This document shows positions 1 to 41,933 of a stretch of DNA of 64,000 nt, piece after piece; position 1 is the stretch's first letter; every line of letters begins with the position of its first letter. Below the pieces are notes generated by a model that made no database searches, was not told the origin of the DNA, and saw only the letters and a list, made by a program, of their open reading frames with translations. The position numbers were made by a program, and so were the translations under genes. The stretch comes from Macrostomum lignano (taxonomy: Eukaryota), in NCBI GenBank assembly GCA_002269645.1, contig NIVC01003431.1, forward strand, positions 1 through 64,000, in the 5' to 3' direction.

Positions 1-66
1 GAGGAGGAGAAGATAAAAAGTGTTAAGGGGAGAAAGAGAGACAGAGACAGTGAAAAAATTACTTAC

Positions 67-3000
67 GAATCGTATCGGCGTAAATGACGCGGGTTCCTAG
101 ACCCTCCAGAGCCTCGTAGAGTCGCAGCCGGGCGTGGGAGGTGGTGAAAACGCCAATAGGTACATTAGCGTACTTGAACGCCCGCTCGCCAGCACCGCCA
201 AATCGGGGCTTGTACTCGAGCATCATGAAGCTCTCCCCAATTGGCTCGCACGACTTGACCTTGATCGAGGGGTCGTCAGGCGCTGCAGCCACGCCTCGTA
301 GCTGTCCACAATCTCTGTGGAGGTCAGGTCGTCGCGCTGGCAGAATTTGCCCCAGAGCCTGCAGGGAAAAATAAATTTTTTTTGTAAGTAGAAAAACAGG
401 CCCCACTGCAAGTAGAAAAAACTTACGAGTTTAGAAAAATCTTGGCACAAAGCGCAGGCCAGGATTTCTCCACCTTTTCCAGCCGGACGCCTTCGCGCTC
501 GAAAAAGCTGGCCATGTAGGCAGCCTTGGCGTCCTCAGCCATCCCCGGCGAACCGCTAGACTCGGCTTTGAGCTTCAAAAAAGTGTTTACATAATCTGCA
601 AACAGGCCCGTGCGAGTCTCGGTCCAATAGGCCAGGGCATGAACTGACTGCAGCTTGTAACCCAACTGCAGGGCCTTGTGGAGCTCTGGGGTCGACCACG
701 TGCCGCGGAGCATTCTCTCAGCGTCAGTGTGTGTACACTCGCTGCTGCACTGGGTCTCCATGCAGACGCGGCAGAGGCCGAAAACCAGCTTCTTGTTAAT
801 CTTGGCGGGCAGTAGCGGGATGTGGAGATTGGTTGGCGGCAGAATCGACACCTCGGCGATGCCAAAATACCGGGCCAGCTGCAGCTCATCCAGTAGATGA
901 GGCTCGGGGTGGTGTACCGGGTGCCCGACAGGGTACTTGTCAAACTTGTTGACAGTCGGGTAGAGCGACACCTAGGGGATAAGGGATAAGATAAACTCAA
1001 ACGCATGTCAACTGTGTGTGTACAAGTGTACAAACTTACCACATCCCGATAGCGCAGCTCTACAGTCTCGGTGGCCTCGGCGTGCGGGACAAAAGCCTCG
1101 GTACGGCCGCCAAACAGGGCATCCTCCAGGCGAATAGGCTGCTGGACTGGCGCTCCCTCGTCCTGATAGTCGTGCTCCCACAGAACACGCACATTGTATG
1201 CAGTGGAGAGCAGCCGGTGAAGCGCTCAGTCTCCTCATAAATCGCCCGCATTGGCTGGTTCTTGAGCGGGTGCAGCACGTCGCCGTTGGGGAAGCACTTG
1301 GGACAGCCATGGAAGAAGCAGCCATGAAACTGCAGCACTGTCCTGGTCTCTGGGTCGAAGCCGTCGACCTTACGGCCCATGGCGAAAGCCTCGCCGCCCG
1401 AGTCCGCTGTCCGCAACCGGCCGCCAAACTCGGTTGCATTCAAATGTGCAGCCAGCACCGCGCCTTGTGCGACTGTACATCGGACCGGCGGGAAATCACC
1501 CCAAGAGTGTTGGGCTCCATAAACTTGGTGGTGAATAACAGCCATGGCCAAGCCCGCAATGGTGTTGGATTGAACAAATGCGTCCAGTCCGCAAATGTCC
1601 TTAATCAGGCGGGTATTTAGACAGCCTTCCCGCAAAATTAACGTGTCCTGCAGGCAGTAGTCCAGGTACTCCTTATTGAAATTAAACACCTGTCCCTCCT
1701 GCTTGGCCAGCCAGTCGGCGATGGAGTCATGCTGCTTGTTTTTCCTCCATACATATCAATTGAGCAGTAGGGACCCACGTACCCCCAATTTTGGCTGGTT
1801 AAACACGTGCGGGAAATCTCCTTTGGTCAGTTGGGTGCCCAAACCAAGCGCCTTTGGGAATTGCGCCAGACCAATAGGGATGAAATTGAGGCTGTCCTTG
1901 AAGGTGATCTTGTCGCACTTCATACATTAGGCGGCTGTTCTGGAAGATCACTTGCGGCTTCTTCTTGGCCAGTCCGTTGAGTAGGGCGCCGAGCAGGAGG
2001 AATGCGTCATACGCAGAGCCATTGTGCGCAATAGCAATTGCCCCCTGCTTGAACACACTAGTCAGCCAGCAGTAAAAGGCATCGATAGAGTGCGGCCCGA
2101 CAGATACAAACTCTCGCATCCCACAGGCACAGTCATTGTGCGAGACACAGCTCGTGAAATCGAGTGCCAAATCGCGTCCCGCAATGCAATTGGCTGAGCT
2201 GTGTAGTCCCCCGCACGCTGCAGCGGGGCCTGGGGAAGAGTTTGGGACACGCCTCGCAGGAGGTGGCAGCCGTAACCAAGTGTACCCGGTGCTGCTTGCC
2301 AGAGTCCACGTACGTCTCGAAATCATAGTAAACATACGGGGCGCTAGACTCTTTGGCTTTGGGCGGGGTGACAAAGCACTCGTGGGTGGCAGTTTCGTCG
2401 TACTGCTTGCAGACTGGGCACTTGGCGTAACCACACTGATGCTCAGGGGGCTGGCCTACTTTTAGTTCTTCTAGATAGCCACACGTGCCGCAAACGTGGA
2501 CCGAATCACAGCGCGATCTGCCGGCCTTATTCTTGCGCTTGTGATTTTCTAGGCACTGAGCATTATAGCAATTTAGCCCGCAATCATGGCATCTTACATA
2601 TGCGCGGTTTGCCTTACAGTTGGAGCCCGGAGTCTTGCATGTACTGCAGGCATCAGCGCACTTGTGCTTCTCATATTGCAGTCGTAGGCCATCTCGCACT
2701 TGGGGCAGTAGTGATCGAGCCGAAAAACGCAGGCAGCTTGGTACCACATTAAAGTGCTGCTCGACCAGGTGTAGGTGCAGAATCTCGGTGCCAGGCAGGT
2801 TGAAGATGCACCTGTTGGCCTCCTCTGCGCGGTACACGCGTACACCAAAATCGTGCCCGGATGCAGCCGGTTCAGGGCACGGATCGCTTCGGGCAGTGCA
2901 TCCACCCGAAAGGACCGCCTGCGAGACGGTTTGAAGAGTCTGTGTGGGGGTAAAATATTTCTTTTAGTATTCCTGATACTGTGTAAAATCTTATCAGAAA

Positions 3001-4674
3001 ATTTCTTTTAGTATTCCATGATACTGTGTAAAAATCTTATCAGAAAATATATCTTTTAGTATTCCATGATACTGTGTAAAAATTCTTATCAGAAAATATA
3101 TCTTTTAGTATTCGATACTGTGTAAAAATTCTTATCAGAAAATTTTAGTATTCCAGATACTGTGTAAAAATTCTTATCGAAAAATACTAGAAACTTACCG
3201 TAGAGGCCAGCTTCGATTTGTAGCTCAGCCAAGCTTAGTCTGCGTGGGCGAATTGGCCTTGATTGTGCCACACCTGCTGGTGATGGACTTGGCCACGAAT
3301 TGCAGGTAGGCGCAGGCCACGACCAGAGCGCGCAGCAGGCATCTCTTGTCCGAGTTGGTGATGCGGACATAGTGCTTGGAGAAGGCGTGCCGCTCTTCTA
3401 GATGCTTGTTCTCGAGAGCACATCCACCTCGAGGCACCCAGGCCTTTAGCAACCGATAGAAAAGTTGCCGACAACAGTGGCATCCGACTGCACAATCTTG
3501 TCATGTGCTTAAACAACAATTCAGCCGTCATGCGGGCTGCACGCACCGGGGGAGTGTGGGCCGCTTTGAGCATATTGTCGCTCTCGAATTTCGCGGCCAT
3601 AAAGTCATCACCAGCCAAATCTTGCTTGAAAACTTCGAGCATGTCAGCAAACACCTCCCGCAAATCTTCGGTGTTGGTAATATGCACCACATACTCGACA
3701 CCCTTTGCCCTAAACTTGGGCAGGTCACGCTGATTATCCAGCCGGGCCGTAAAACCTGCATGGGGGGAATGGGGGAGTGTGAGTCAGCTAGGGTCTGTGT
3801 GGGAAATGGGGGGCTGGATAACTCACCCGGTCCGGTAACAGATTCCGGCTGTGTTGGCGGGACAAACGCGTCTGAAAAAACACAAGGAGATAAAAAACCA
3901 GAAGAATCTGTCATTTTCCTGGCCCCAGCGTGTTTCCCCGCCCTAGCCCCAGCAATTTCTTAACAGAGTTTACTCTGCTGTCCCCGCAGCAACTCTCTGC
4001 AATTTCTTATCTGCACCCCCGCTGCAGCCTGTCGCAGCAGTCTTTGTTTACTCACCCCTGCAACTCTCTGTCGCAGCAATTTGCACCTAGCTGCAGCCTG
4101 TCTGGGTAGCGCCCTATCTGCAGCCCCAGTCTGTCCCAGCAACTCTCTGCCCCCACCTGGCTGGAACTTGTCTAGCCTGCCCCAACGATTCTGCAGCAAT
4201 TTCTTATCTGCCGCAGCACCCTAGCAACTGTCTGTTTTTGCAGCAATTTCTTATCAGCACACCCCTCCCTGTCTAGACAACACCCCACCCCAGTCTTTGT
4301 TTACTCACCCCTGCAACTCTCTGTCGCAGCAATTTGCACCCCAGCTGCAGCCTGTCTGGACAACACCCCCCTAGCAGCAATTTCTTATCAGCACACACCC
4401 GGCTGAAACTTGTCTAGCCCTCCCCTGCAACTCTCTGTTACAGACCCTGCCGCAGCACCCCACCCTAGCAACTCCAGTCTAGACCCCTGCAGCTGTCGCA
4501 GCAGTCTTTGTTGTTTACTCTGCGGTCCCACAGACCCTGCAGCTGCTGCTGCTGCTCAGCCCCTACCCCCACCCTAGCAACTACAGTCTAGACAGAAATT
4601 AATTAAAACTTACCATAAAGACGTTGCCTCTTGTCAGCCAGGAAAGCAGTTGCTGCGGCGCTGCGTTTAGCCAT
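67..4674 (-). CDS. polB: Protein-primed family B DNA polymerase, copy 1 (exons 4674-4614, 3871-3827, 3755-3199, 2939-1040, 971-427, 358-67; last exon outside window; several 1-2 nt indels)
   Basis: ORF fragments carry YDFET, AHNGSAYD, YCLQD, D(V)VSLYP, KIFLNS/LWGKF and YADTD. GT-AG introns mirror those of copy 2. Confidence 0.9.
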
Positions 4675-4912
4675 TTTGCAAACAGAGAGCGTGAGAGAGC
4701 GGAGAGAGAAGGATTTATCTCTCTACCCTGGCTCTGGGGGTCTGTATATATACTAAAAAATCTGCTCAGCTCGCCTGTTATTGGATAAATCGCCAAAAAC
4801 CAACCAAAATCATCAAAAATCACCCCAAAATCATCACCCACCCCACCCTCCATCCGGGGTATATAAGGCGCTGCACGGCTGTCAGAGAGCTCTCTGCTGC
4901 TGCTGCTAAATC
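4675..4912. promoter_or_regulatory. Bidirectional promoter between polB and PC4-like gene (copy 1)
   Basis: GTATATAAGG at ~4860 lies about 50 nt before the PC4 ATG (4913). An opposite-strand TATATATA and a CCAAT precede the polB ATG (4674). Confidence 0.6.
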
Positions 4913-5445
4913 ATGTCTTCTATCTCTCTATACGAAAACTTTGTGGCGCGGAAGCCCACATTTGAAACTGAACACAACTTGATTGAAATTCGGCGTCTCT
5001 ACACCAACGAGGCCGGAGTGTGGAAGGACGGCTTCCCTGCAATCTACTTGGCCGAGCCAGAGTGGAAGAAGCTCGAAGCTGCGCGCCCTGACCTGGAGGC
5101 TGCTGCCCGCCTTCACGTGAACAAGCGGGTCCTGTTGGGCAATTTCAAGGCAGTTGAAGCTTCGCGAGGGAGGATCCGTTTGCTGCGCAATTGGCTCAAT
5201 CAGGACCCAAAGTTTAATTGGCGCTACACGATCGAATTCACGCCTGAACTGTGGCGCCGGATGTTTGCCGCCCGTTTGGACAAGCTCTTCAAGCCGGCAC
5301 CTGAGGCACCCCTCCAGCCAAGCGAGTCAAGACAGACACGCCTCCGGTAGCCGGGACTGAGGTGGATGTTCTTCAGCTCATGGGTCTCAAACCCTACCAA
5401 TCTCCACCCTGGGAAAATCTGTTTAACGAGGGTTGGGACTGCTAG
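4913..5445 (+). CDS. Tandem PC4-like ssDNA-binding protein, copy 1 (1-nt indel near 5310; about 177 aa)
   Basis: LIEIRRLYTNEAGVWKDGFPAIYLAEPEWKKL matches the PC4/Sub1 signature (human [32 protein letters not shown]). A second repeat reads IRLLRNWLNQD...IEFTPELWRRM. An NLS-like PAKRVK appears after correcting the C-run using copy 2. Confidence 0.75.
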
Positions 5446-5560
5446 TTTCCTATTGGTTCGCACCGCCTCACTCGATCCGTCTATATAATTAGTGTTTCCC
5501 CCTCTCCAGAGAGTCAAACCCTATCTCAGCTCTAATACTTTACTCTCTGTTGATTCTAGC

Positions 5561-5707
5561 ATGTCCCGCCGAGCTCTATCCAACCTCTGGGATAATAATC
5601 GCCCGACTGAAGAGTTAACCAGCCTCGACGGGGATATCCCTGAACACATAGTTCCCCTAGGCACTGAAAACAACGGAATGATAATTGGGAGGCTGATCAA
5701 TATCTAG
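5561..5707 (+). CDS. Small orphan ORF (48 aa, MSRRALSNLW...)
   Basis: ATG at 5561 downstream of CTATATAA (~5483). No recognisable domain. Confidence 0.3.
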   Translation: MSRRALSNLWDNNRPTEELTSLDGDIPEHIVPLGTENNGMIIGRLINI

Positions 5708-5715
5708 CTTGGGCT

Positions 5716-6570
5716 ATGTCCTATGATAGCGACACCGAGTCTGAAGTTTTTGACCTCCCGCTGCTGGCTATCGGCGGGTTGTGAACGGTGCCCCTGCTGC
5801 TACTGCCTCCGATTTGACTACCGCCTCAGCCGCCCTCTTTGACGTCTCTGTTGAGGAGCTGACCACAACCGGCCCTGCCTCTGCTGCGCCCGTCTCTGCT
5901 GCTGCCGCCTCTACTACGCCCGTCTCTGCTGCTGCTTCAACTACCTCCCACCGGGCCTCAATATCATCAGCCGCTACGCTCCTTCTCTTCGACGACGAGG
6001 ACGAGGATATGTCTGAGGAGATCGCCGTGGTTCGTGAGCGCTTTCCTCGCATTGTGGCCTCATTTTTCCGTGGGGACATTGACTGGCTGAGGTCTCGGCA
6101 TCCTGGCGGGCTGCCCTCCCAAGCCACCTTTGTCAGAGCCTTTAATCGGGTTCTTGATACTTTGGTTGCGAGGGGTGCCGGCCTACGGGAGGTGGGAGGC
6201 TGAGACTCTGCACCAGGACTGGTTGATGGGGCGCAATTCGTATGCCCCCGACTCTGAGGCGTACCTGGCCGGTCCGGGAGCGCGGCCAACCGCGTGGGAT
6301 GAGCCCGCCGCATGGCCCTCCAACTGGGAGGAGCACCTTTCGTTGGTGCGCTATACAGCGTCTCTACGTCTGTGGCGGCTGGAGGACGATTTAGATTTGG
6401 TAAGATATTACATTATATACACAACTCATCTAATCATATACCTTGCATATATTCTATCTACATTGACTGTTATAATTTCCACATTGCAGTCATCCGACTA
6501 CTGCTTCGAGAGCGTGGAGGAAGAGGCCGCGTACGAGACAGCCCTGAGGGAGCGTATGGAGATTGACTGA
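5716..6570 (+). CDS. Orphan element protein (about 250 aa), joined across two probable 1-nt indels (~5775, ~6175) and one intron (6400-6489)
   Basis: ATG 5716 followed by ORFs 5781-6203 and 6130-6570 in consecutive frames. The AT-rich 90-nt insert TTG|gtaaga...ttgcag|TCA is a phase-0 intron. Confidence 0.55.
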
Positions 6571-6701
6571 TAAGGGTTTTCTCTTTGTACGCGTTTGGGG
6601 AACCCAACACTGTACACTGGGTAGGTTAGAATGGCGCTAGCTGGGGGGCCTCTATGTGTGTATACACGGGGGTTAAAAGACCAATTCTGATAGCTCGCTC
6701 C

Positions 6702-6778
6702 TAGGGAGGAAATTGGCAGAGGGGCCGGCCCAAAAAACTGAAATGGGCTGGCCCCGGGCTCGAGTCCACCCACCTAAA
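6702..6778 (+). ncRNA. Putative Pol III-type structured small RNA 1
   Basis: GGGAGG-N4-TGGCAGAG (A-box-like), a 12-bp stem with 11-nt loop, then GGCTCGAGTCC (B-box-like). Same layout as 14361-14450. Confidence 0.5.
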
Positions 6779-6880
6779 ATATGGAGGTCATTACAACCTA
6801 ATGACCGAAATACTTTCAACGCAATTGTACCCATAAGAGGGTTAGGGCGGCGGCGGCGGTGGCGAAAACGGGCGGCTAAA

Positions 6881-7809
6881 ACCTCCCTTTTGGGATTTCC
6901 CCGAACCGCTTTTGTTAAAATTTTTATGCACCTGCGGGTTAGACAATATTTACTCTTTAGTCGGTGCGACATTATTTACGCGTCTGTTGCACCTGGGCGT
7001 TTGCCTATAATCTGATTATACATGCGTGCCTGTATTATACAACTACACCTTATGCATGCCTTGTAAACCTGCTTTATACATTAATCCGATATGTATCGAA
7101 AGTACACTTTGTAAACCTGCTGTGTGTATTTCCCCCTATGTAGCGCCTACAGTACCTGCTTTGTCTATTTCTGCCCATGCACCTACATTGTGTGTTTTTG
7201 CTGCTCATATGCTCCAATATGTACATTTTAATATGCAATATGCGTCATTATTCACCTACCAATATGTTTTATCTACATTTTTATGTAAATATACTCAATT
7301 TCACCTACTATAAGTAGTTTTCACTAGCCTAATATCGTTGACTACATATCGGGAGAGTGTGGTAGAGTGTACACACATATCGGTAGAGTGTACCTTGGGC
7401 TCGGTAGAGTGTACACTCGGGGTGCTTGCGGCTCGGTAGAGTGTACACTCGGGGTGCCTGCGGCATGGGCGTCTGCGGCATGGGCGCCTGCGGCTGGGGA
7501 AGGTCGCCTGCGGCTCGGGAGGGTGTACATATCGGGGTACATGTCGGTAGGGTGAGCATACATATCGGTAGGTGCGCCTGCGGCTGGGGAGGGTCGCCTG
7601 CGGCTGGGGAGGGTCGCCTGCGGCTGGGGAGGGTCGCCTGCGGCTGGACGGCGCTTGGCGCCACGCGCCTGCGGCGCGCGCGCGCGCCGAGCGCCGATAT
7701 CGATACGGGTATCGATCACCTAGTGATCGGGGCGCCAGCCAATGAGAGGCGAGGAGGGTTGACACCCACCCCCCTCCCAAAATCAACACATCTGCCAGTC
7801 CATAGTAGT
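6881..7809 (+). repeat. Terminal repeat (inferred TIR), copy at the PC4-side end
   Basis: Highly similar to 14514-15393. AT-rich inner part, GC-rich 16-20-bp subrepeats, palindromic cluster, ends CATCTGCC-N6-TAGTAGT. Confidence 0.75.
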
Positions 7810-7898
7810 GACAGATTATATGTAATTTATATACGATTTATATGAAATTAAGCTTACCAAAAATCGGGTTCGCGCTGTACGGATACGGCACGCCTCAA

Positions 7899-8395
7899 TT
7901 AGCAACCCTCGTCAAACAGATTTCCCCAAGGGTAGGGTTTGATGCTGTCAAGGCAGTCCTGCAGATTGTCCTCTGTCTTGACTCGCTTGGCTGGAGGGGG
8001 TGCCTCAGGTGCCGGCTTGAAGAGCTTGTCCAAACGGGCGGCAAACATCCGGCGCCACAGTTCAGGCGTGAATTCGATCGTGTAGCGCCAATTAAACTTT
8101 GGGTCCTGATTGAGCCAATTGCGCAGCAAACGGATCCTCCTCGCGAAGCTTCAACTGCCTTGAAATTGCCCAACAGGACCCGCTTGTTCACGTGAAGGCG
8201 GGCAGCAGCCTCCAGGTCAGGGCGCGCAGCTTCGAGCTTCTTCCACTCTGGCTCGGCCAAGTAGATTGCAGGGAAGCCGTCCTTCCACACTCCGGCCTCG
8301 TTGGTGTAGAGACGCCGAATTTCAATCAAGTTGTGTTCAGTTTCAAATGTGGGCTTCCGCGCCACAAAGTTTTCGTATAGAGAGATAGAAGACAT
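7899..8395 (-). CDS. Tandem PC4-like ssDNA-binding protein, copy 2 (1-nt indel near 8140; about 165 aa, variant C-terminus)
   Basis: Near-identical to 4913-5336 in reverse complement. Ends APPAKRVKTEDNLQDCLDSIKPYPWGNLFDEGC*. Confidence 0.75.
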
Positions 8396-8633
8396 GATTT
8401 AGCAGCAGCAGCAGAGAGCTCTCTGACAGCCGTGCAGCGCCTTATATACCCCCGGATGGAGGGTGGGGTGGGTGATGATTTTGGGGTGATTTTTGATGAT
8501 TTTGGTTGGTTTTTGGCGATTGACCAATAACAGGCGAGCTGAGCAGATTTTTTAGTATATATACAGACCCCCAGAGCCAGGGTAGAGAGATAAATCCTTC
8601 TCTCTCCGCTCTCTCACGCTCTCTGTTTGCAAA
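8396..8633. promoter_or_regulatory. Bidirectional promoter (copy 2)
   Basis: CCTTATATACCC at ~8440 (TATA on minus strand), CCAAT at ~8524, TATATATA at 8556-8563, polB ATG at 8634. Confidence 0.6.
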
Positions 8634-11600
8634 ATGGCTAAACGCAGCGCCGCAGCAACTGCTTTCCTGGCTGACAAGAGGCAACGTCTTTATGGTAAGT
8701 TTTAATTAATTTCTGTCTAGACTGTAGTTGCTAGGGTGGGGGTAGGGGCTGAGCAGCAGCAGCAGCTGCAGGGTCTGTGGGACCGCAGAGTAAACAACAA
8801 AGACTGCTGCGACAGCTGCAGGGGTCTAGACTGGAGTTGCTAGGGTGGGGTGCTGCGGCAGGGTCTGTAACAGAGAGTTGCAGGGGAGGGCTAGACAAGT
8901 TACAGCCGGGTGTGTGCTGATAAGAAATTGCTGCTAGGGGGTGTTGTCCAGACAGGCTGCAGCTGGGGTGCAAATTGCTGCGACAGAGAGTTGCAGGGGT
9001 GAGTAAACAAAGACTGGGTGGGGGGTTGTCTAGACAGGGAGGGGTGTGCTGATAAGAAATTGCTGCAAAAACAGACAGTTGCTAGGGTGCTGCGGCAGAT
9101 AAGAAATTGCTGCAGAATCGTTGGGGCAGGCTAGACAAGTTACAGCCAGGTGGGGGCAGAGAGTTGCTGGGACTGTGTAGCGCGGGGACAGACTGATAAG
9201 AAATTGGCAGGGGCGCTACCCAGACAGGCTGCAGCTAGGTGCAAATTGCTGCGACAGAGAGTTGCAGGGGTGAGTAAACAAAGACTGGGGTGGGGGGTTG
9301 TCTAGACAGGGAGGGGTGTGCTGATAAGAAATTGCTGCAAAAACAGACAGTTGCTAGGGTGCTGCGGCAGATAAGAAATTGCTGCAGAATCGTTGGGGCA
9401 GGCTAGACAAGTTTCAGCCGGGTGGGGGCAGAGAGTTGCTGGGACAGACTGGGGCTGCAGATAGGGCGCTACCCAGACAGGCTGCAGCTAGGTGCAAATT
9501 GCTGCGACAGAGAGTTGCAGGGGTGAGTAAACAAAGACTGCTGCGACAGGCTGCAGCGGGGGTGCAGATAAGAAATTGCAGAGAGTTGCTGCGGGGACAG
9601 CAGAGTAAACTCTGTTAAGAAATTGCTGGGGCTAGGGCGGGGAAACACGCTGGGGCCAGGAAAATGACAGATTCTTCTGGTTTTTTATCTCCTTGTGTTT
9701 TTTCAGACGCGTTTGTCCCGCCAACACAGCCGGAATCTGTTACCGGACCGGGTGAGTTATCCAGCCCCCCATTTCCCACACAGACCCTAGCTGACTCACA
9801 CTCCCCCATTCCCCCATGCAGGTTTTACGGCCCGGCTGGATAATCAGCGTGACCTGCCCAAGTTTAGGGCAAAGGGTGTCGAGTATGTGGTGCATATTAC
9901 CAACACCGAAGATTTGCGGGAGGTGTTTGCTGACATGCTCGAAGTTTTCAAGCAAGATTTGGCTGGTGATGACTTTATGGCCGCGAAATTCGAGAGCGAC
10001 AATATGCTCAAAGCGGCCCACACTCCCCCGGTGCGTGCATCCCGCATGACGGCTGAATTGTTGTTTAAGCACATCAACAAGATTGTACAGTCGGATGCCA
10101 CTGTCCTGACGGGCAACTTTTCTATCCGGTTGCTAAAGGCCTGGGTGCCTCGAGGTGGATGTGCTCTCGAGAACAAGCATCTAGAAGAGCGGCACGCCTT
10201 CTCCAAGCACTATGTCCGCATCACCAACTCGGACAAGAGATGCCTGCTGCGCGCTCTGGTCGTGGCCTGCGCCTACCTGCAATTCGTGGCCAAGTCCATC
10301 ACCAAGCAGGTGTGGCACACAATCAAGGCCAATTCGCCCACGCAGACTAAGCTGGTGGCTGAGCTACAAATCGAAGCTGGCCTCTACACGGTAAGTTTCT
10401 AGTATTTTTCCGATAAGAATTTTTACACAGTATCGTGGAATACTAAAAGATATATTTTCTGATAAGAATTTTTACACAGTATCGGGGAATACTAAAATTT
10501 TCTGATAAGATTTTTTACACAGTATCAGGGAATACTAAAAGAAATATTTTACCCTCCACACAGACTCTTCAAACCGTCTCGCAGGCTGGTCCTTTCGGGT
10601 TGGATGCACTGCCCGAAGCGATCCGTGCCCTGAACCGGCTGCATCCGGGGCGCGATTTTGGTGTACGAGTGTACAGGGCAGAGGAGGCCAACAGGTGCAT
10701 CTTCAACCTGCCTGGCACCGAGATTCTGCACCTGCACCTGGTCGAGCAGCACTTTAATGTGGTCACCAAGCTGCCTGCGTTTTTCGGCTCTGATCACTAC
10801 TGCGCCAAGTGCGAGATGGCCTACGACTGCGCCAACGCCGAGCACAAGTGCGCTGACGCCTGCAGTACATGCAAGACTCCGGGCTCCAACTGTAAGGCAA
10901 ACCGCGCATATGTAAGATGCCAGGATTGCGGGCTAAATTGCTATAATGCTCAGTGCCTAGAAAATCACAAGCGCAAGAATAAGGCGGGCAGATCGCGCTG
11001 TGATTCGGTCCACGTTTGCGGCACGTGTGGCTATCTAGAAGAACTAAAAGTAGGCCAGCCCCCTGAGCATCAGTGTGGTTATGCCAAGTGCCCAGTCTGC
11101 AAGCAGTACGACGAAACTGCCACCCACGAGTGCTTTGTCACCCCGCCCAAAGCCAAAGAGTCTAGCGCCCCGTATGTTTACTATGATTTCGAGACGTACG
11201 TGGACTCTGGCAAGCAGCACCGGGTACACTTGGTTACGGCTGCCACCTCCTGCGAGGCGTGTCCCAAACTCTTCCCAGGCCCCGCTGCAGCGTGTGCGGG
11301 GGACTACACAGCTCAGCCAATTGCATTGCGGGACGCGATTTGGCACTCGATTTCACGAGCTGTGCCTCGCACAATGACTGTGCCTGTGGGATGCGAGAGT
11401 TTGTATCTGTCGGGCCGCACTCTATCGATGCATTTTACTGCTGGCTGACTAGTGTGTTCAAGCAGGGGGCAATTGCTATTGCGCACAATGGCTCTGCGTA
11501 TGACGCATTCCTCCTGCTCGGCGCCCTACTCAACGGACTGGCCAAGAAGAAGCCGCAAGTGATCTTCCAGAACAGCCGCCTAATGTACATGAAGTGCGAC

Positions 11601-13925
11601 AAGATCACCTTCAAGGACAGCCTCAATTTCATCCCTATTGGTCTGGCGCAATTCCCAAAGGCGCTTGGTTTGGGCACCCAACTGACCAAAGGAGATTTCC
11701 CGCACGTGTTTAACCAGCCTCAAAATTGGGGTACGTCGGTCCCTACTGCTCAATTGATATGTACGGAGGAAAGAAAAACAAGCAGCATGACTCCATCGCT
11801 GACTGGCTGGCCAAGCAGGAGGGACAGGTGTTTAATTTCAATAAGGAGTACCTGGACTACTGCCTGCAGGACACGTTAATTTTGCGGGAAGGCTGTCTGA
11901 AATATACCCGCCTGATTAAGGACATTTGCGGACTGGACGCATTTGTCCAATCCAACACCATTGCGGGCTTGGCTATGGCTGTTTTCACCACCAAGTTTAT
12001 GGAGCCCAACACTCTTGGGGTGATTTCCCGCCGGTCCGATGTACAGTCGCACAAGGCGCGGTGCTGGCTGGCACATTTAAATGCAACCGAGTTTGGCGGC
12101 CGGTTGCGGACAGCGGACTCGGGCGGCGAGGCTTTCGCCATGGGCCGTAAGGTCGACGGCTTCGACCCAGAGACCAGGACAGTGCTGCAGTTTCATGGCT
12201 GCTTCTTCCATGGCTGTCCCAAGTGCTTCCCCAACGGCGACGTGCTGCACCCGCTCAAGAACCAGCCAATGCGGGCGATTTATGAGGAGACTGAGCGCTT
12301 CACCCGGTTGCTCTCCACTGCATACAATGTGCGTGTTCTGTGGAGCACGATTATCAGGACGAGGGAGCGCCAGTCCAGCAGCCTATTCGCCTGGAGGATG
12401 CCCTGTTTGGCGGCCGTACCGAGGCTTTTGTCCCGCATGCCGAGGCCACCGAGACTGTAGAGCTGCGCTATCGGGATGTGGTAAGTTTGTACACTTGTAC
12501 ACACAGTTGACATGCGTTTGAGTTTATCTTATCCTTATCCCCTAGGTGTCGCTCTACCCGACTGTCAACAAGTTTGACAAGTACCCTGTCGGGCACCCGG
12601 TTCACCACCCCGAGCCTCATCTACTGGATGAGCTGCAGCTGGCCCGGTATTTTGGCATCGCCGAGGTGTCGATTCTGCCGCCAACCAATCTCCACATCCC
12701 GCTACTGCCCTCCAAGATTAACAAGAAGCTGGTTTTCGGCCTCTGCCGCGTCTGCATGGAGACCCAGTGCAGCAGCGAGTGTACACACACTGACGCTGAG
12801 AGAATGCTCCGCGGCACGTGGTCGACCCCAGAGCTCCACAAAGCCCTGCAGTTGGGTTACAAGCTGCAGTCAGTTCATGCCCTGGCCTATTGGACCGAGA
12901 CTCGCACGGGCCTGTTTGCAGATTATGTAAACACCTTTTTGAAGCTCAAAGCCGAGTCTAGCGGTTCGCCGGGGATGGCTGAGGACGCCAAGGCTGCCTA
13001 CATGGCCAGCTTTTTCGAGCGCGAAGGCGTCCGGCTGGAAAAGGTGGAGGAGAATCCTGGCCTGCGCTTTGTTGCCAAGATTTTTCTAAACTCGTAAGTT
13101 TTTCTACTTGCAGTGGGGGGCCATGTTTTTCTACTTACATAAAATTTATTTTTCCTCTGCAGGCTCTGGGGCAAGTTCTGCCAGCGCGACGACCTGACCT
13201 CCACAGAGATTGTGGACAGCTACGAGGCGTGGCTGCAGCGCCTGACAGACCCCTCGATCAAGGTCAAGTCGTGCGAGCCAATTGGGGAGAGCTTCATGAT
13301 GCTCGAGTACAAGCCCCGATTTGGCGGTGCTGGCGAGCGGGCGTTCAAGTACGCCAATGTACCTATTGGCGTTTTCACCACCTCCCACGCCCGGCTGCGA
13401 CTCTACGAGGCTCTGGAGGGTCTAGGAACCCGCGTCATTTACGCCGATACCGATTCGTAAGTAATTTTTTCAACTGTCTCTGTCTCTCTTTCTCCCCTTA
13501 ACACTTTTTATCCTTCTCCTCCTCCTCCCAGGGTCGTATACCGCTGCTCCCCGGGCGAGTACGAGCCTCCGGGCGGTTCGAGTTTGGGGCAGTGGACTGA
13601 CGAGGTACCTGCTGGCTGCCGCATGGTACAGTTCACCACGGGAGGCCCCAAGCTCTACCGGTACGTGGTGGAGAAGCCCGACAGGTCGCTGTACTCGGTG
13701 CTCAAGTGCAAGGGCATCAGAGTCACGCCCGAGATTTCCGAGCGCGAGGACGAGCTGCAGGAAATTCTGCGCCACGGGGGCTCTGTCCGCCTGCCCCAGG
13801 CCCAGTTCAGGCGCGATAAGGCCAGCTGTACAATCCGGACCCTGGAGATGGACAAGACTTTCCAGCGCGTAATGACTAAGAGGGTGTATGGGGCCGCTAG
13901 CCGCCCGTATGGCTTTCGTGAGTGA
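8634..13925 (+). CDS. polB: Protein-primed family B DNA polymerase, copy 2: exons 8634-8694, 9707-9751, 9822-10390, 10564-12480, 12546-13093, 13163-13456, 13532-13925 (about 1,270 aa; three 1-nt indels in exon 4)
   Basis: All six introns are GTAAGT/GTGAGT...YAG and splice in frame. Exo I-III: YDFET, HNGSAYD, YCLQD. Pol A/B/C: RDV|VSLYP, KIFLNS|LWGKF, YADTDS|V. Also a Cys-rich zinc region, a Vsr-like VDGFD...QFHGCFFHGC segment, and N-terminal OTU-like DKRCLLRAL...QHF. Confidence 0.93.
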
Positions 13926-14087
13926 GTGAAAGATAAGGATCTGTCTTTACACGCCTGGGATTCCCCTATGTGCCCACTTGGGATCCCTTGACTCTTGGGG
14001 TTGAAAAATGGTTTTACGCCCGCACTGTACTTAGGGGTCCTTACTCATTTGACACCTCCTGTACATTGAGCGGGATTCCTTCAAGTG

Positions 14088-14333
14088 TTAAAACTCCCAT
14101 TTGACACCTATTCCCTCGGGGCGGTTTGTGGCCCAGCGGTCCGCCTCTTGGAGTAGAACTCCTGACATGAACTTGCTGCGCTGATTAGCGTACTGATAGC
14201 GCAATCGAAATACGTCCATTTTTCTAGCCCACTTGTGGGTACATTTACGTTGAAAGATGTTGATGCGTTCAATAACGTTGTAATAATAATAAGTCTCCAC
14301 ATCATAGGGCGGCGAAACCTCCCTTTTGCTCAT
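14088..14333 (-). CDS. Small orphan ORF (81 aa) convergent with polB
   Basis: ATG-initiated, non-repetitive ORF inside the element. No recognisable domain. Confidence 0.35.
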   Translation of the reverse strand: MSKREVSPPYDVETYYYYNVIERINIFQRKCTHKWARKMDVFRLRYQYANQRSKFMSGVLLQEADRWATNRPEGIGVKWEF

Positions 14334-14360
14334 CTATTTTAGACAATAATGAGACTCTGA

Positions 14361-14450
14361 CCCCGGGAGGTTAATGGCCGAGCGGGTAACCCTGGCGGTA
14401 TAAAACAGGGTGACCCAGGCTCGATTCCTGGCTGGGGGCTGTAGACTTTT
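14361..14450 (+). ncRNA. Putative Pol III-type structured small RNA 2 (tRNA-like boxes, not a tRNA)
   Basis: TGGCCGAGCGG A box; 11-bp stem with 11-nt loop; T-arm CCAGG-CTCGATT-CCTGG containing the B box; closing CCCCGG/CTGGGG; TTTT at ~14447. Confidence 0.55.
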
Positions 14451-14513
14451 CCGGCCCCTGCGTCCCTATTGGGTTTAATTGTGTTGAAAGTATATCGGGT
14501 CATTAGGCCGTGA

Positions 14514-15393
14514 ACCCCCCTTTTGGGATTTCCCCGAACCGCTTTTGTTTAATATTTATGCACCTGCGGGTTAGACAATATTTACTCTTTAGTCGGTGCG
14601 ACATTATTTACGCGTCTGTTGCACCTGGGCGTTTGCCTATAATCTGATTATACATGCGTGCCTGTATTATACAACTACACCTTATGCATGCCTTGTAAAC
14701 CTGCTTTATACATTAATCCGATATGTATCGAAAGTACACTTTGTAAACCTGCTGTGTGTATTTCCACCTATGTAGCGTCTACAGTACCTGCTTTGTCTAT
14801 TTCTGCCCATACACCTACATTGTGTGTTTTTGCTGCTCATATGCTCCAATATGTACATTTTAATATGCAATATGCGTCATTATTCACCTACCAATATGTT
14901 TTATCTACATTTTTATGTAAATATACTCAATTTCACCTACTATAAGTAGTTTTCACTAGCCTAATATCGTTGACTACATATCGGGAGAGTGGTAGAGTGT
15001 ACATATCGGTAGAGTGTACACTCGGGGTGCCTGCGGCTCGGTAGAGTGTACACTCGGGGTGCCTGCGGCATGGGCGTCTGCGGCATGGGCGCCTACGGCT
15101 CGGGAGGGTGCGCCTGCGGCTCGGGAGGGTGTACATATCGGGGTACATATCGGTAGGGTGGGCATACATATCGGTAGGTGCGCCTGCGGCTGGGGAGGGT
15201 CGCCGGTGGCTGGGGAGGGTCGCCTGCGGCTGGACGGCGCTTGGCGCCACGCGCCTGCGGCGCGCGCGCGCCGAGCGCCGATATCGATACGGGTATCGAT
15301 CACCTAGTGATCGGGGCGCCAGCCAATGAGAGGCGAGGAGGGTTGACACCCACCTCACCTCCAAAATCAAGCCATCTGCCGTTGCTTAGTAGT
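14514..15393 (+). repeat. Terminal repeat (inferred TIR), copy at the polB-side end
   Basis: Repeat of 6881-7809 with subrepeat copy-number differences. Confidence 0.75.
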
Positions 15394-15840
15394 CCGCAGG
15401 GACTTATTTTAGCGCCACAGGCACTCAGTTTCGCGTTGCAGGGACTCATTTTAGCGCCACAGGCACTCATTTTAGCGCCACAGGCACTCATTTTAGCGCC
15501 GCAGGCACTCATTTTAGCGCCGCAGGCACTCATTTTAGCGCCGCAAGCACTCATTTTAGCGCTGCAAGCACTCATTTTAGCGCCGCAAGCACTCATTTTA
15601 GCGCCGCAAGCACTCATTTTGGCGCCGCAGGCACTCATTTTAGCGCCGCAGGCACCTATTTGAGCACCGCACGCACCATTTTAGCGCCGCAGGCACTCGT
15701 TTGAGCGTCGCAGGCACTCGTTTGAGCGCCGCAGGCACTCGTTTGAGCGCCGCAGGCACTCGTTTGAGCGTCGCAGGCACTCGTTTGAGCGCCGCAGGCA
15801 CTCATTTGAGCACCGCAGGCACTCGTTTGAGCGCCGCAGG
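15394..15840. repeat. 21-bp satellite (GCAGGCACTCATTTTAGCGCC)n
   Basis: Visible tandem array. Confidence 0.95.
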
Positions 15841-16119
15841 CTTGACGCTTGATGCGTATTTTGTTGTTGTTAAAGACTGAAGGTTCGTTCACAACTCACA
15901 CCTGACACCTCTATCAAATCTGACCAGATTTCGTATAGCTAATCTCGAGACTTGTACATCAACTTTCATTCCTTTGTACAAATACATCATTATTTGATGG
16001 CAAGGATGGCGGGAGTGTCAATGAGCCTAATTTACTTCCCTTAAGTCGAAAAGAGACCTTTATTCTAGTCACTATAGAAAGAGTCATAGACAGTTAGCGC
16101 AACCAGAAATTTGTTGAGG

Positions 16120-16950
16120 TGGGGCGGATTCTGGGGAGTAAAGACCCAAATGGCGGATTCTGGAGGGTAAAGACCTAAGGGGCGGATTCTGGAGGGTAAA
16201 GACCCAAGGGGCGGATTCTGGAGGGTAAAGACCCAAATGGCGGATTCTGGAGGGTAAAGACCTAAGGGGCGGATTCTGGAGGGTAAAGACCCAAGGGGCG
16301 GATTCTGGAGGGTAAAGACCCAAGGGGCAGATTCTGGAGGGTAAACACTCAAGGGGCGGATTCTGGGGGGTAAACACTCAAGGGGCGGATTCTGGGGGGT
16401 AAAGACCCAAGGGGCGGATTCTGGAGGGTAAAGACCCAAGGGGCGGATTCTGGGGGGTAAACACTCAAGGGGCGGATTCTGGGGGGTAAAGACCCAAGGG
16501 GCGGATTCTGGAGGGTAAAGACCCAAGGGGCGGATTCTGGAGGGTAAAGACCCAAGGGGCGGATTCTGGAGGGTAAACACTCAAGGGGCGGATTCTGGGG
16601 GGTAAAGACCCAAGGGGCGGATTCTGGGGGGTAAAGACCCTTGGGGCGGATTCTGGAGGGTAAAGACTCAAGGGGCGGATTCTGGGGGGTAAAGACCCAA
16701 GGGGCGGATTCTGGGGGGTAAAGACCCAAGGGGCGTATTCTGGACGGTAAAAACCCAAAGGGGGCGGATTCTGGAGGGTAAAGACCCAAAGGGGGCGGAT
16801 TCTGGAAGGGGCGGATTCTGGAAGGAGGCGGATTCTGGAAGGGGGCGGATTCTGGAAGGGGGCGGATTCTGGAAGGGGGCGGATTCTGGAAGGGGGCGGA
16901 TTCTGGAAGGGGCGGATTCTGAAAAGGGGCGGATTCTGGAAGGAGGCGGA
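16120..16950. repeat. G-rich minisatellite (GGGGCGGATTCTGGAGGGTAAAGACCCAA-type grading into a 15-bp GGGGGCGGATTCTGGAA-type unit)
   Basis: Visible tandem array. Confidence 0.95.
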
Positions 16951-17298
16951 GGGGGCGTCTCTGCTTTGGTGAAAATTCGCTTGGTCTTGGTACCTCAAAA
17001 CCCTTTGAATTTTTTTTCAGGTCTCCGCCCTCCCCCTACTGTTCATAAACAGACTTAAACTTAGTGTCAGTAAGAATTATTCATGATTTTTCAGTTTCAT
17101 TCTCAACTAACTACCATTTGGCTCGGGGCACCTCGATCAGTCGATCGGACTCGTACGAGCTATTAGATTTTTGCATAAATTTTGGACATTCTTTCGTTGT
17201 GTGATCATTTATCTACAAACGTGCATATGAGGGTCGGGGCTTTCGTTGTACGATCCCCGTAATTAAATAACAATCTTAATGGATTATGAAAAAAGACA

Positions 17299-17348
17299 AA
17301 AAATATGGAACGCTTCACGAATTTGCGTGTCATCCTTGCGCAGGGGCC

Positions 17349-17388
<40 letters not shown>

Positions 17389-17405
17389 ACTGCCGAAGCA
17401 AGTAC
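17299..17405 (-). ncRNA. RNU6: U6 snRNA gene, copy 1
   Basis: Reverse complement reads GTACTTGCTTCGGCAGTACATATACTAAAATTGGAACGATACAGAGAAGATTAGCATGGCCCCTGCGCAAGG...CCATATTTTT. TATATATA lies about 25-30 nt upstream. Confidence 0.97.
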
Positions 17406-18094
17406 GATCCTGTAGGATTCGGACCGTATATATACTGACAGAAAATAGAGGTGCAGAGACTAAAGCGCTCGTTTTCGTAGTGAGTTTTACAGCCCTTGCT
17501 AAAATCAAAATTTCATGAATATCAATCGTAAATATTGCCTAAAAATGACAAAACGGTGTTAAAACAATTATTAATTTATTTTATACGACTTTATTGAGTT
17601 CTTTACTCACCAATTTTTATTAAATAAAGCAATAATTGTGTGCTTAACTTGTAAAACTAGCGTAAACTACTTGCAGTAGAGCTATTTGCATGTTGTTTCC
17701 TCGTTAACGCAGCTATGAAAACCCCTTTTTGATACGGATTCTAAATTTACAATTTCTCAAGTGATTGTTCATGTTTTTAGAATTTTAAAGTTTTCGATTG
17801 AAGCTGAGGTTTTAATAACAATTTTGGCCAGGTGGATTAATATAACTATTAAGATTCTACACAGAATAAGAGGTAGACTTATAGTTTAATCATCATGGAA
17901 TGCAGCACTTTATCTTACTCTGCTTATACATCGAGCCTCATCACAAAGTCAGCATTAAAAAGTCATTTTTTGCTACTGCGACTTCACTGCAGATTTAGAT
18001 GGAATAAAATGAAGGGGATAGAGAAAGTGATTGGGCTCGCTTAGCCTTAAAAGCGACATTGCTTTCCGACAGCCAAGCAGCCCTTCGGACTTTG

Positions 18095-18190
18095 TGCTGG
18101 GCAATCAGGTGGAGCTCAAATGGATCCCGGACCACACTGGTTTTCTTAGCAACGAGTACGCTGCCCTGAAACCTCAGCTCCTGGGGCCGG
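18095..18190 (+). pseudogene. Degenerate RNase H fragment, probably from a non-LTR retrotransposon
   Basis: VELKWIPDHTGFLSNEYA resembles the retroelement RNase H motif WVPGHxGIxGNExAD. Confidence 0.4.
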
Positions 18191-19829
18191 GCCCCCATCC
18201 CCGCCTCGGTAATCAACTCCCGGGTCAACGGCTTGGGCTGATTCCGAGCATCTCTTCAGGTGACACGACACCCGGAATTGCAGGCAATCCCGTGCTGCCG
18301 TCCCCTGCCCCTCCCCCCCCCCCCCCTGCACAGAGCTCTCCTTAGGCTTGAACGCAAGGATCTTAGAGCAGTCAGCATGGCCCTCTTCGGGCATGGCTGC
18401 TTCCTTTAGCCACCGCTTCCTTCAGGGCGAGTTAGCATGAGGAGCGGTGCCGCAATTCTGTCGCTCAAGCAATGAAAACTCTGAGCACTTTATCTTTGGG
18501 TTATCGGTATCCTAAGCGGTTATCTTGGGTACCTCAAGGACACGGGACGAGCTGAGTTCTTCCCCACCGCCGGTGAGGAGATACAATTAAGTTAGAAAAG
18601 TTTAAAAAATCAAACATAATATTTAAAATAGAAACCGGCGACAACGCAGCTGATCCCGAAATCATATTCAACGAGCGAGGCAACAAAGACATTCGAAAGG
18701 TCCGCTATAAGTACGCTCGTAGCTTCAAGCTAAGCTCAAAGGAACTCGGAGATCTGAGAAACTTTTTCAGAGATCAGTATCAAATTGTATCTCGGATCGG
18801 TTGGATTGAGCAGTCAGGACAAAGACAGGTCTGTGAAGGTATACTGGAGAGTGTTGCTGAGGTGGATTCTCTCAGAAACATTGCAGAGAGTCGTTCTCAG
18901 ACTAAAAAATTACACTGAACTAATTGTACTGTAATATAATTGATACTTTTTAAAGCACAAAAGTCACTTGAGAGTAAAGAAGTTTATGTAGCTCGTAAAA
19001 CAAAGTATGTAAGCAATGCGACATTTTTAAGTTGGAAGAAATCTGTTTGAGTCTATTGAGTCTATTTATTAATAATTTTAGTATCTGCTATCAATTTGAA
19101 TTTAGGCCAAGTCTCTCAAAGAAGCAGAATCAATTAATATACCTGGATATTTTTCCGCTAAGAGCATATCATCACATTACCTGTCAGTGGCACTGTGCTC
19201 AGCCCAGTGATCAGCCTAGATCACGTAGAGGACGCGGACTGGATCAGCTCACAGGGCATTCAGTACGCTCGTATTGTATAGACCGATTGAACCACTACCC
19301 TTGTCACTGGACAGGCTGTTTGTTGCTATGGGGATTGAATTAAACAGGATTGCTGAGTGCAAAGCAAGGATGCGGCAGCTGGAGGCTGCTGGACTTCAGC
19401 TGGACCCCACAGCTGCTGCCAGACTGCGGGATGAGAAAGTCGCCATGCTGCTGCGGGCCTGCTGAGGTCTTCGTGCTCAGCGATTCTTGACAATCTTGAC
19501 TGTCAGCAATAGCTAACTACTGTTCGAGCCGTATTCACTGTATAGAACGGAGTGTACATTGCATTTACTATTGTTTAATCTTGTAGTAACTTTCAAATTT
19601 CTGCTAAATTTGCTCGGAACAAGGTAAAAATAGTCTGCTCCTAAGCTTCATCTGTTACTAATTCCTGTTTTGTTTTGTTTTAATGACAGCAAAATTCATT
19701 GCGTCATAATGGTCATCAGAAACAATTTATTAAATGAATGATTGACTGTAAATTTACCTCTCTTCAAGGGCGTCGCCATGGATTTTATGGCGGGGGGACA
19801 AAGCCAGGAATTCAACATGTACATGACAA

Positions 19830-23385: not shown

Positions 23386-23730
23386 GCACCGGGCAGAGGG
23401 GGCGTCTCTGATTTGGTGAAAATTCGCTTGGTCCCTCAAAACCCTTTGAATTTTTTTTTCAGGTCTCCGCCCTCCCCCCACTGGTCATAGACCGACTTAA
23501 ACTTAAGTGTCAGTAAGAATTATTCCTGATTTTTCAGTTTCATTCTCAACTAACTACCATTTGGCTCGGGCACCTCGATCGGGACTCGTACGAGCTATTA
23601 GATTTTCGCATAAATTTTGGACATTCTTTCGTTGTGTGATCATCTACAAACGTGCATATGAGGGTCGGGGCTTTCGTTGTACGATCTCCCGTAATTTAAT
23701 AACAATCTTAATGGATTATGAAAAAGGACA

Positions 23731-23780
23731 AAAAATATGGAACGCTTCACGAATTTGCGTGTCATCCTTGCGCAGGGGCC

Positions 23781-23820
<40 letters not shown>

Positions 23821-23837
23821 ACTGCCGAAGCAAGTAC
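23731..23837 (-). ncRNA. RNU6: U6 snRNA gene, copy 2
   Basis: Same U6 sequence and upstream TATA as copy 1. Confidence 0.97.

Positions 23838-30978: not shown

Positions 30979-41933
<10,955 letters not shown>

What the first reader, a model, noticed from the sequence alone, without database searches (positions are those of the whole stretch)
6702..14450. Two divergent Pol III-like RNAs with a covarying hairpin, one inside each TIR
Seen: 6702-6778 and 14361-14450 share the layout GGGAGG-N4-TGGCnGAG-GGG-[stem]-CCC-GGCTCGAnTCC. The stems differ in sequence (GGGGCCGGCCCA/TGGGCTGGCCCC vs GGGTAACCCTG/CAGGGTGACCC), yet both pair and both close an 11-nt loop. Both B boxes carry the same T>C deviation (GGCTCGA). 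Known: internal A/B boxes drive Pol III transcription, and adenoviruses, which are pPolB relatives, encode Pol III VA RNAs. Inference: element-encoded structured small RNAs (VA-RNA analogues, RNAi decoys) or TFIIIC-bound boundary elements.
Basis: partly seen in the sequence, partly recalled or inferred. Interest (0 to 1): 0.75.

Follow-up and report, generated by a model that had tools for sequence, protein, structure and literature searches.

The report
Polinton RNA cassettes with anti-helicase antisense
A small virus-like transposon in a flatworm-like genome carries three related small-RNA gene look-alikes next to its ends, and one of them holds backwards pieces of a host gene of the kind that silences transposons, which suggests, but does not yet show, that the element turns the host's RNA defence against itself.

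Summary
Both motifs are real (2 matches, 0 expected by chance). They are the 5' heads of larger units: RNA1 (6704-6891) and RNA2 (14365-14524) each have A/B boxes at tRNA spacing, a terminal stem and a T4 stop. A third paralogue, RNA3 (14119-14327), was missed. They sit in a ~9.7-kb Polinton-like element (895-bp TIRs, 6-bp TSD, spliced pPolB, no integrase or capsid found), just inward of the TIRs, facing out; in this window they belong to two nested copies. The T>C B box is shared with an abundant host SINE-like repeat. Covariation rests on one contrast. New: RNA3 carries two pieces (80-89% identical) antisense to coding exons of a host DEAH-helicase/Tudor gene (spindle-E/TDRD9 architecture), and RNA1 is complementary to RNA2/RNA3 over 45-60 nt. 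Best reading: a counter-silencing RNA cassette (0.5). Element mRNAs are spliced in 4 of 4 runs and run through the cassettes; separate Pol III transcripts are not shown, and only about a quarter of copies carry RNA1. Unchecked scan notes report Pol III-type units in two other Polintons.

The parts
6704..6891 (+). RNA1: Pol III-type unit at the left end of copy A (A box 6714-6724, hairpin 6721-6755, B box 6757-6767, 5' GGGAGG pairing with CCTCCC before T4 at 6888-6891)
   Evidence: (z -3.88, 0 of 200 shuffles)
6791..6845 (+). segment of RNA1 that is the reverse complement of segments in RNA3 and RNA2
   Evidence: (3 antisense hits)
6880..7809 (+). left terminal inverted repeat of copy A, ending AGTAGT
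7810..7815 (.). junction: copy A is inserted into the left-gene intron of copy B; only one side of the target site lies in the contig
   Evidence: (uninterrupted site in C3425)
5561..6570 (+). left gene of copy A, unknown protein, one spliced intron; its mRNA runs on through RNA1
4913..5350 (+). small ORF of copy A, PC4-like single-strand-binding lead
   Evidence: score 0.86, lead only; PC4 E 0.19, below cut-off
7895..8395 (-). same small ORF in copy B (differs from copy A by frameshifts)
8634..13925 (+). protein-primed B-family DNA polymerase gene of copy B, with introns, broken by frameshifts in this copy; start position inferred
   Evidence: PF03175 in 3 of 10 frames; 6 CT..AC joints in copy C845
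1..4673 (-). same polymerase gene in copy A, cut by the contig start
13950..14118 (+). remnant of the 50-65-nt repeat array that fills this slot in sibling copies
14119..14327 (+). RNA3: third paralogue (A box 14129-14139, no clear B box, internal T5 14219-14223, terminal stem before T4 14324-14327)
   Evidence: z -1.42; C3940 form z -2.69
14145..14224 (+). RNA3 piece A: antisense to a coding exon of a host DEAH-helicase/Tudor gene
   Evidence: (80-81%, 4 places)
14251..14311 (+). RNA3 piece B: antisense to another coding exon of the same gene, 2.3 kb away
   Evidence: (87-89%, 3 places)
14365..14524 (+). RNA2: Pol III-type unit (A box 14375-14385, hairpin 14384-14416, B box 14418-14428, T4 at 14447-14450 and 14521-14524; segment 14464-14507 complementary to RNA1)
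   Evidence: (z -2.21, 4 of 200)
14513..15393 (+). right terminal inverted repeat of copy B, ending AGTAGT

Best explanation
One lineage of a small Polinton-like element has built a counter-silencing RNA cassette between its genes and its TIRs. Shown: three paralogous units with tRNA/SINE-type heads, terminal stems and oligo-T ends; RNA3 holds two pieces antisense to coding exons of a host DEAH-helicase/Tudor gene; RNA1 is complementary to RNA2 and RNA3; element mRNAs are spliced and read through the units. Inferred: (1) the host gene is the piRNA-pathway helicase spindle-E/TDRD9 (domain order fits; role recalled, orthology not tested); (2) RNA1 and RNA2 are transcribed by Pol III into stable 86-190-nt structured RNAs that work like adenovirus VA RNAs, as double-strand-like substrates or decoys for Dicer-type machinery; (3) RNA3, from its own A box or as part of the polymerase mRNA 3' end, yields antisense small RNAs against the helicase mRNA, so that host processing of element RNA lowers the host's own silencing capacity; pairing with RNA1 may supply the double strand that feeds this. 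Odds: discrete Pol III transcripts about 0.6; antisense pieces kept for use against the host gene about 0.55; whole picture 0.5.
For: RNA2 A box identical to that of 10 host tRNA-Leu-like genes (10 of 13 matches); A-to-B spacing 43 nt in both. The first T4 after RNA1's B box is preceded by the exact complement of its first 6-7 bases; the same holds in RNA2, RNA3 and in the fused RNA3/2 form. Folding beats shuffles in RNA1 forms (z -3.88, -4.07, -6.23) and RNA2 forms (-2.21, -3.19), whereas 2 of 2 host SINE-like heads do not (z 0.88, -0.65). The same B box heads a host repeat with at least 4,089 exact 23-mers (control 2), so the host machinery probably accepts it (inference). RNA3 pieces match the host gene in 4 and 3 places at E 8e-14 to 6.5e-12; in the one place read (C4440) both lie in long open frames on the opposite strand that score as DEAD, Helicase_C and TUDOR; perfect runs of 20-26 and 22 nt. 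Piece A is kept in 25 copies of three subfamilies, including the 16 that lost RNA2's head. RNA1/RNA3 complementary segments change together between subfamilies; a natural RNA1-RNA2 tandem folds a ~36-bp duplex (z -7.18). One contig (X4 record 22) runs from the last polymerase exon through piece A.
Against: No discrete Pol III transcript shown: contigs cross RNA1 and its T4 into the TIR, as Pol II read-through would give. RNA3 has no clear B box and folds weakly in the window form (17 of 200 shuffles as good). The units are optional: 32 RNA1 places against 246 TIR-core motifs; sibling copies have a repeat array instead, and the model found no full-length head beside the more distant polymerase families. 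Most copies have lost RNA2's head (16 deleted against 4 intact at 99% or more). Host-derived pieces have drifted 11-20% with indels. Matched RNA1/RNA3 changes could come from gene conversion. Covariation of the hairpin is weak.
Confidence: 0.5

Rival explanations
1. Neutral capture: the element picked up SINE-like heads and gene fragments (as Pack-MULE-type elements do; recalled), and they persist by hitch-hiking and end-to-end conversion.
For: Heads align collinearly with a host SINE-like head, about 36 of 65 columns by eye, nearly all in the boxes; about three quarters of copies lack RNA1; RNA2 is often deleted.
Against: Units have a stable hairpin, terminal stem and T4 end that the SINE heads lack; no SINE body follows; the captured gene has the architecture of a silencing helicase and both pieces are antisense and exonic; the deletion form rebuilds a terminal stem.
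Confidence: 0.17
2. Self-regulation: RNA1 is an antisense regulator that pairs with the complementary segment in the polymerase mRNA 3' end (RNA3/RNA2) and limits replication, like plasmid copy-control RNAs (recalled).
For: 45-60-nt complementarity with matched subfamily changes; polymerase mRNA contigs cover the segment.
Against: Does not explain why the segment sits among host-helicase pieces; copies without any cassette are the majority.
Confidence: 0.12
3. 3'-UTR structures of the two outward Pol II mRNAs (stability, export or processing signals), with no Pol III transcription; the antisense pieces act, if at all, from the mRNA.
For: Both cassettes lie downstream of genes on the sense strand and are covered by contigs of spliced transcripts; the sibling repeat array fills the same slot.
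Against: Exact A/B boxes at tRNA spacing plus T4 ends are not needed for that.
Confidence: 0.12
4. DNA-level TFIIIC sites that act as boundaries at the element ends, like the B boxes in the fission-yeast IR-L/IR-R repeats.
For: One unit per end in intact copies; B boxes bound by TFIIIC without Pol III are described (PMC7474672, passages).
Against: A boundary needs no A box, terminal stem, terminator or antisense content; single B boxes, one of them missing in most copies.
Confidence: 0.09

Closest known systems
Adenovirus VA RNA I/II
   Same: Pol III-type A/B boxes, about 160 nt, A box inside a terminal stem, oligo-T end, head-to-tail paralogues (C1638/C3314 subfamily), carried by a pPolB replicon; tRNA origin proposed (PMC7589676, PMC6599070; passages).
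   Different: No Rfam match; B box follows a short inter-box hairpin; no shown tetrastem or pseudoknot; units complementary to one another; one carries host-gene antisense; integrated element without capsid genes.
Rice miR820 in CACTA transposons targeting OsDRM2
   Same: A DNA transposon carries small-RNA sequence complementary to a host silencing gene (PMC3459959, abstract).
   Different: Animal host, Polinton-like carrier, Pol III-type cassette, long captured exon pieces rather than a miRNA hairpin; target is a helicase/Tudor gene; activity untested here.
Polinton/Maverick elements
   Same: pPolB, TIRs of 100-1,500 bp, 5-8-bp TSD (PMC10748475, passages).
   Different: 9.7 kb (described range 13-25 kb), spliced polymerase, no integrase or capsid genes found.
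Host tRNA-derived SINE-like repeat (head ending GACCCAGGCTCGATTCC)
   Same: Same B-box context as RNA2, A box like RNA3, same spacing.
   Different: No stable hairpin in the SINE head, different body; model scores at most 10.5 bits; cassettes occur only inside the element.
Gammaherpesvirus TMERs and EBV EBERs (recalled; TMER comparison taken from scan note e1-7879910)
   Same: Viral Pol III RNAs with tRNA-like promoters that feed or jam small-RNA pathways.
   Different: No cloverleaf (ARAGORN 0 genes), no Rfam match.

Membership tests
Adenovirus VA RNA | match to the Rfam model | tested here: not met
   no VA hit at E up to 5
Adenovirus VA RNA | internal A and B boxes, oligo-T end, ~160 nt with terminal stem | tested here: met
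   (RNA1, RNA2); RNA3 lacks a clear B box
Adenovirus VA RNA | GGGU/ACCC tetrastem at the apical-central junction, central pseudoknot | tested here: inconclusive
   RNA2 hairpin base reads GGGU/ACCC but closes the hairpin directly; RNA1 has GGGG/CCCC; pseudoknot not testable
Adenovirus VA RNA | abundant Pol III transcript | not testable with these tools
   only contigs available
Polinton/Maverick | protein-primed polymerase B | tested here: met
   PF03175
Polinton/Maverick | TIRs and 5-8-bp TSD | tested here: met
   ~895-bp TIRs; 6-bp TSD in 2 of 2 intact copies read
Polinton/Maverick | retroviral-like integrase | tested here: not met
   no such Pfam hit in 10 window frames or 2 ORFs of C845; no room in the 9.7-kb copy
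Polinton/Maverick | capsid, ATPase, protease genes; 13-25 kb | tested here: not met
tRNA gene | cloverleaf with anticodon | tested here: not met
   ARAGORN 0; no Rfam tRNA hit
host SINE insertion | SINE body, tail and dispersed free copies | tested here: not met
   28 of 28 RNA1 loci read lie in element sequence; no SINE body after the B box
spindle-E/TDRD9 (target gene) | DExH helicase followed by a Tudor domain | tested here: met
   DEAD, Helicase_C, TUDOR in order
spindle-E/TDRD9 (target gene) | orthology by phylogeny and role in piRNA silencing in this host | not tested
   found late; name recalled from the domain order
transposon-encoded anti-silencing small RNA (miR820 type) | small RNA made and target mRNA lowered or cut | not testable with these tools
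   no small-RNA reads available

The most novel reading that the evidence does not exclude
An animal Polinton-like transposon has assembled, from a host SINE-type promoter and captured exons, a set of Pol III RNA genes that make double-stranded and antisense RNA against the host's piRNA helicase spindle-E/TDRD9, an RNA-only anti-piRNA system in which every attempt to process element RNA produces guides against the silencing machinery.
Probability: 0.3. Interest if true: 0.92.

Novelty: new variant of a known kind. Interest (0 to 1): 0.74.

Why it matters
How DNA transposons of animals escape piRNA silencing is largely open; the tested RNA-based case I read is a plant miRNA (miR820). Here natural copies with and without the cassette coexist in one genome of what appears to be a tractable flatworm, the element is transcribed, and the predicted RNAs, their ends and their target sites are defined to the base, so existing or simple small-RNA data can test the idea. 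It would also extend VA-RNA-like genes from adenoviruses to their Polinton relatives and show how such genes can arise from a SINE-type head.

Tried and rejected
Rfam: only U6 reached a gathering score in window 1-20000; no family for the units in 6 loci. ARAGORN: none. Pattern scan of viral contigs: 0; metagenome contigs: 2 records, one read, no hairpin or terminal stem, taken as chance. Sister family with 70% polymerase identity and more distant families: no full-length head in 39 loci beyond the element's own or in 11 sibling loci. The sibling repeat array does not fold better than shuffles (z -0.22, 0.85, -0.15), so a pre-miRNA cluster reading was dropped. Run search: no RNA holder listed as on record; the four guessed RNA runs proved spliced, but contigs cannot show starts, ends, strand or level; run X2 had no cover over L098 1-544. 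Left-gene protein: no usable Atlas or Pfam hit. A genome-wide search with the RNA model was not available, so divergent free-standing relatives may have been missed. Literature searches with no paper on Pol III RNAs in Polintons: (0 papers; 4; 1; 1; 2; 0), listings only.
Full report
Observation. Both inter-box hairpins close 11-nt loops; RNA1 pairs 12 of 12 positions, RNA2 10 of 11. A covariance model built from 5 RNA1 heads only finds RNA2 over its whole length as the best non-self hit in the window (24 bits, E 1.7e-4), so the two are related. Covariation is weaker than claimed: on the plain alignment the stems are two columns out of register and 223 of 500 shuffles reach the score; on the model-fitted alignment 4 of 12 pairs change on both sides (that alignment leans to the structure and includes one antisense self-hit among 10 rows), but this is a single RNA1-versus-RNA2 contrast.

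The carrier. The window is G000:C3431:1-64000. The repeats next to the two units are direct here (6880-7809 and 14513-15393, 92%). Intact copies elsewhere (C211, about 9.7 kb; C845) have ~895-bp inverted repeats, RNA1 inward of the left one and RNA2 inward of the right one, both facing out, ends ACTACT...AGTAGT and 6-bp target duplications in 2 of 2 copies read. The window holds one copy inserted, in reverse, into the left-gene intron of another; C3425 shows the uninterrupted site. The element encodes a protein-primed polymerase (PF03175 in 3 of 10 frames), a small ORF with a PC4-like lead (score 0.86; Pfam E 0.19) and an unknown left gene; no integrase or capsid family was hit. Against the Polinton definition (13-25 kb, TIRs, 5-8-bp TSD, pPolB plus integrase; PMC10748475, passages) it is Polinton-like but reduced, and must borrow an integrase (inference). 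The closest proteins (96%) are labelled Macrostomum lignano by UniRef. A TIR-core motif occurs 246 times (control 0), about 120 copies.

True extent of the units. In RNA1 the first run of four T after the B box is at 6888-6891, directly after the complement of the first six bases; the 189-nt stretch folds with a terminal stem, z -3.88. RNA2 does the same at 14521-14524 (z -2.21, 4 of 200 shuffles as good) and has an earlier T4 at 14447-14450 that also closes a stem (z -2.57). Other subfamilies give z -4.07, -6.23 and -3.19. A third unit, RNA3 (14119-14327), shares the two ends and has a canonical-looking A box but no clear B box, an internal T5, and weak folding in the window form (z -1.42; -2.69 in C3940). 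In the C1638/C3314 subfamily RNA1 and RNA2 stand head to tail at one end. VA RNA genes are likewise about 160 nt, head to tail, with box A in the terminal stem, which is the Dicer substrate (PMC7589676, passages), but no Rfam family matches.

Origin of the heads. RNA2's A box equals that of host tRNA-Leu-like genes (10 of 13 matches, the other 3 being RNA2; tRNA identity read from the sequence and recalled). The T>C B box occurs 7,961 times in the genome (control 962); 7 of 8 sampled sites belong to one tRNA-headed, SINE-like repeat with at least 4,089 exact 23-mers. Its head is collinear with RNA2's but scores at most 10.5 bits and 2 of 2 heads folded no better than shuffles.

Distribution. 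The pattern has 33 genomic matches, 29 RNA1-type and 4 RNA2-type; DNA search gives 32 RNA1 places. Sixteen copies have a deletion that fuses RNA3's first half to RNA2's second half and still close a terminal stem (z -1.78, 12 of 200). Many close siblings have a 50-65-nt repeat array in the same slot instead. The cassettes are therefore optional and lineage-specific, which weighs against an essential role.

Complementarity. A 55-nt segment of RNA1 is the reverse complement of segments in RNA3 and RNA2, and several substitutions match between partners within each of three subfamilies. The natural RNA1-RNA2 tandem folds these into about 36 base pairs (z -7.18). Selection on a duplex and gene conversion between repeats would both give this; I could not separate them.

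Host-gene antisense. The search with 14150-14520 also hit places outside the element: query 1-75 at 80-81% in 4 contigs and query 102-162 at 87-89% in 3 of them, 2,315 bases apart each time. I read one (C4440). Both matches lie inside long open frames on the opposite strand (730 and 191 aa) that score as Helicase_C (E 2.5e-10) plus TUDOR (E 2.9e-14), and DEAD (E 6.5e-5, below the curated cut-off). That order is the architecture of spindle-E/TDRD9, the piRNA-pathway helicase (name and role recalled; orthology not tested). The matches keep the host frame, so the host gene is the donor (inference). RNA3 thus reads as an internally deleted antisense copy: 68 of 77 bases by eye for the C2657 form, with perfect runs of 26 and 22 nt (20 and 22 in the window). 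Piece A is present in 25 element copies. A plant precedent is miR820, encoded in CACTA transposons and lowering OsDRM2 (PMC3459959, abstract).

Expression. Four runs from four studies, guessed to be RNA, were laid on copy C845 (4 of 24 listed). Six CT..AC joints in the polymerase gene and one GT..AG joint in the left gene show spliced mRNAs (each run shows 5 to 6 of the 7). Contigs run from the left gene across RNA1 and its T4 into the TIR, and from the last polymerase exon across piece A (X4); one X10 contig covers RNA2. This shows that the cassettes are transcribed as parts of longer RNAs; it neither shows nor excludes separate Pol III RNAs.

Verdict. Real, element-specific Pol III-type units, three rather than two and larger than stated, most likely a counter-silencing RNA cassette (0.5), with neutral capture (0.17), self-regulation (0.12), 3'-UTR structure (0.12) and TFIIIC boundary (0.09; PMC7474672, passages) as rivals. 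It works like VA RNA plus miR820 but is a member of neither family. Paper searches on Pol III RNAs in Polintons found nothing in the listings; the helicase link was not searched, and supplements were not consulted. Two unchecked notes of this scan describe Pol III-type units at Polinton ends in other genomes. New variant of a known kind; interest 0.74.

Noticed in passing
window 17299-17405 (-) and about 23730-23836 (-): Two U6 snRNA genes in a duplicated unit with 21-nt and ~22-nt satellites (first one 118 bits; second read).
   Followed up: no
L135 240-860, L131 1440-1750, L038 2200-2740, L133: Array of imperfect 50-65-nt repeats filling the gene-to-TIR slot at both ends of sibling copies; folds no better than shuffles; possibly also captured antisense pieces or protein-binding sites.
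   Followed up: partly
L136-L143 (e.g. G000:C1:861125-861445): Abundant tRNA-headed SINE-like repeat with a GGCTCGA B box, at least 4,089 exact 23-mers; a second family with a canonical B box in L144-L146.
   Followed up: partly
window 8634-13925; L080-L081: Polinton-type polymerase gene with spliceosomal introns (6 joints seen); a sister family at 70% protein identity appears to share intron positions and also seems to lack other genes; a nuclease-like insert (VSR-type, recalled motif) lies near 12040-12230.
   Followed up: partly
L060 1960-2260 and L067 2080-2370: A ~280-nt inverted-repeat insert inside the TIR of the C1638/C3314 subfamily forming a long hairpin (sub-threshold Rfam miRNA-precursor hits).
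   Followed up: no
L035-L037 (C1158, C1157): Rearranged copies with RNA1 and the left end at both termini.
   Followed up: no
L094-L095 (G000:C4440:4000-24000) and C2566, C1996, C2999: Host DEAH-helicase/Tudor gene present in at least four contigs.
   Followed up: partly
window 32769-35000 and 35360-36800: Long 44-nt and short-period tandem arrays.
   Followed up: no
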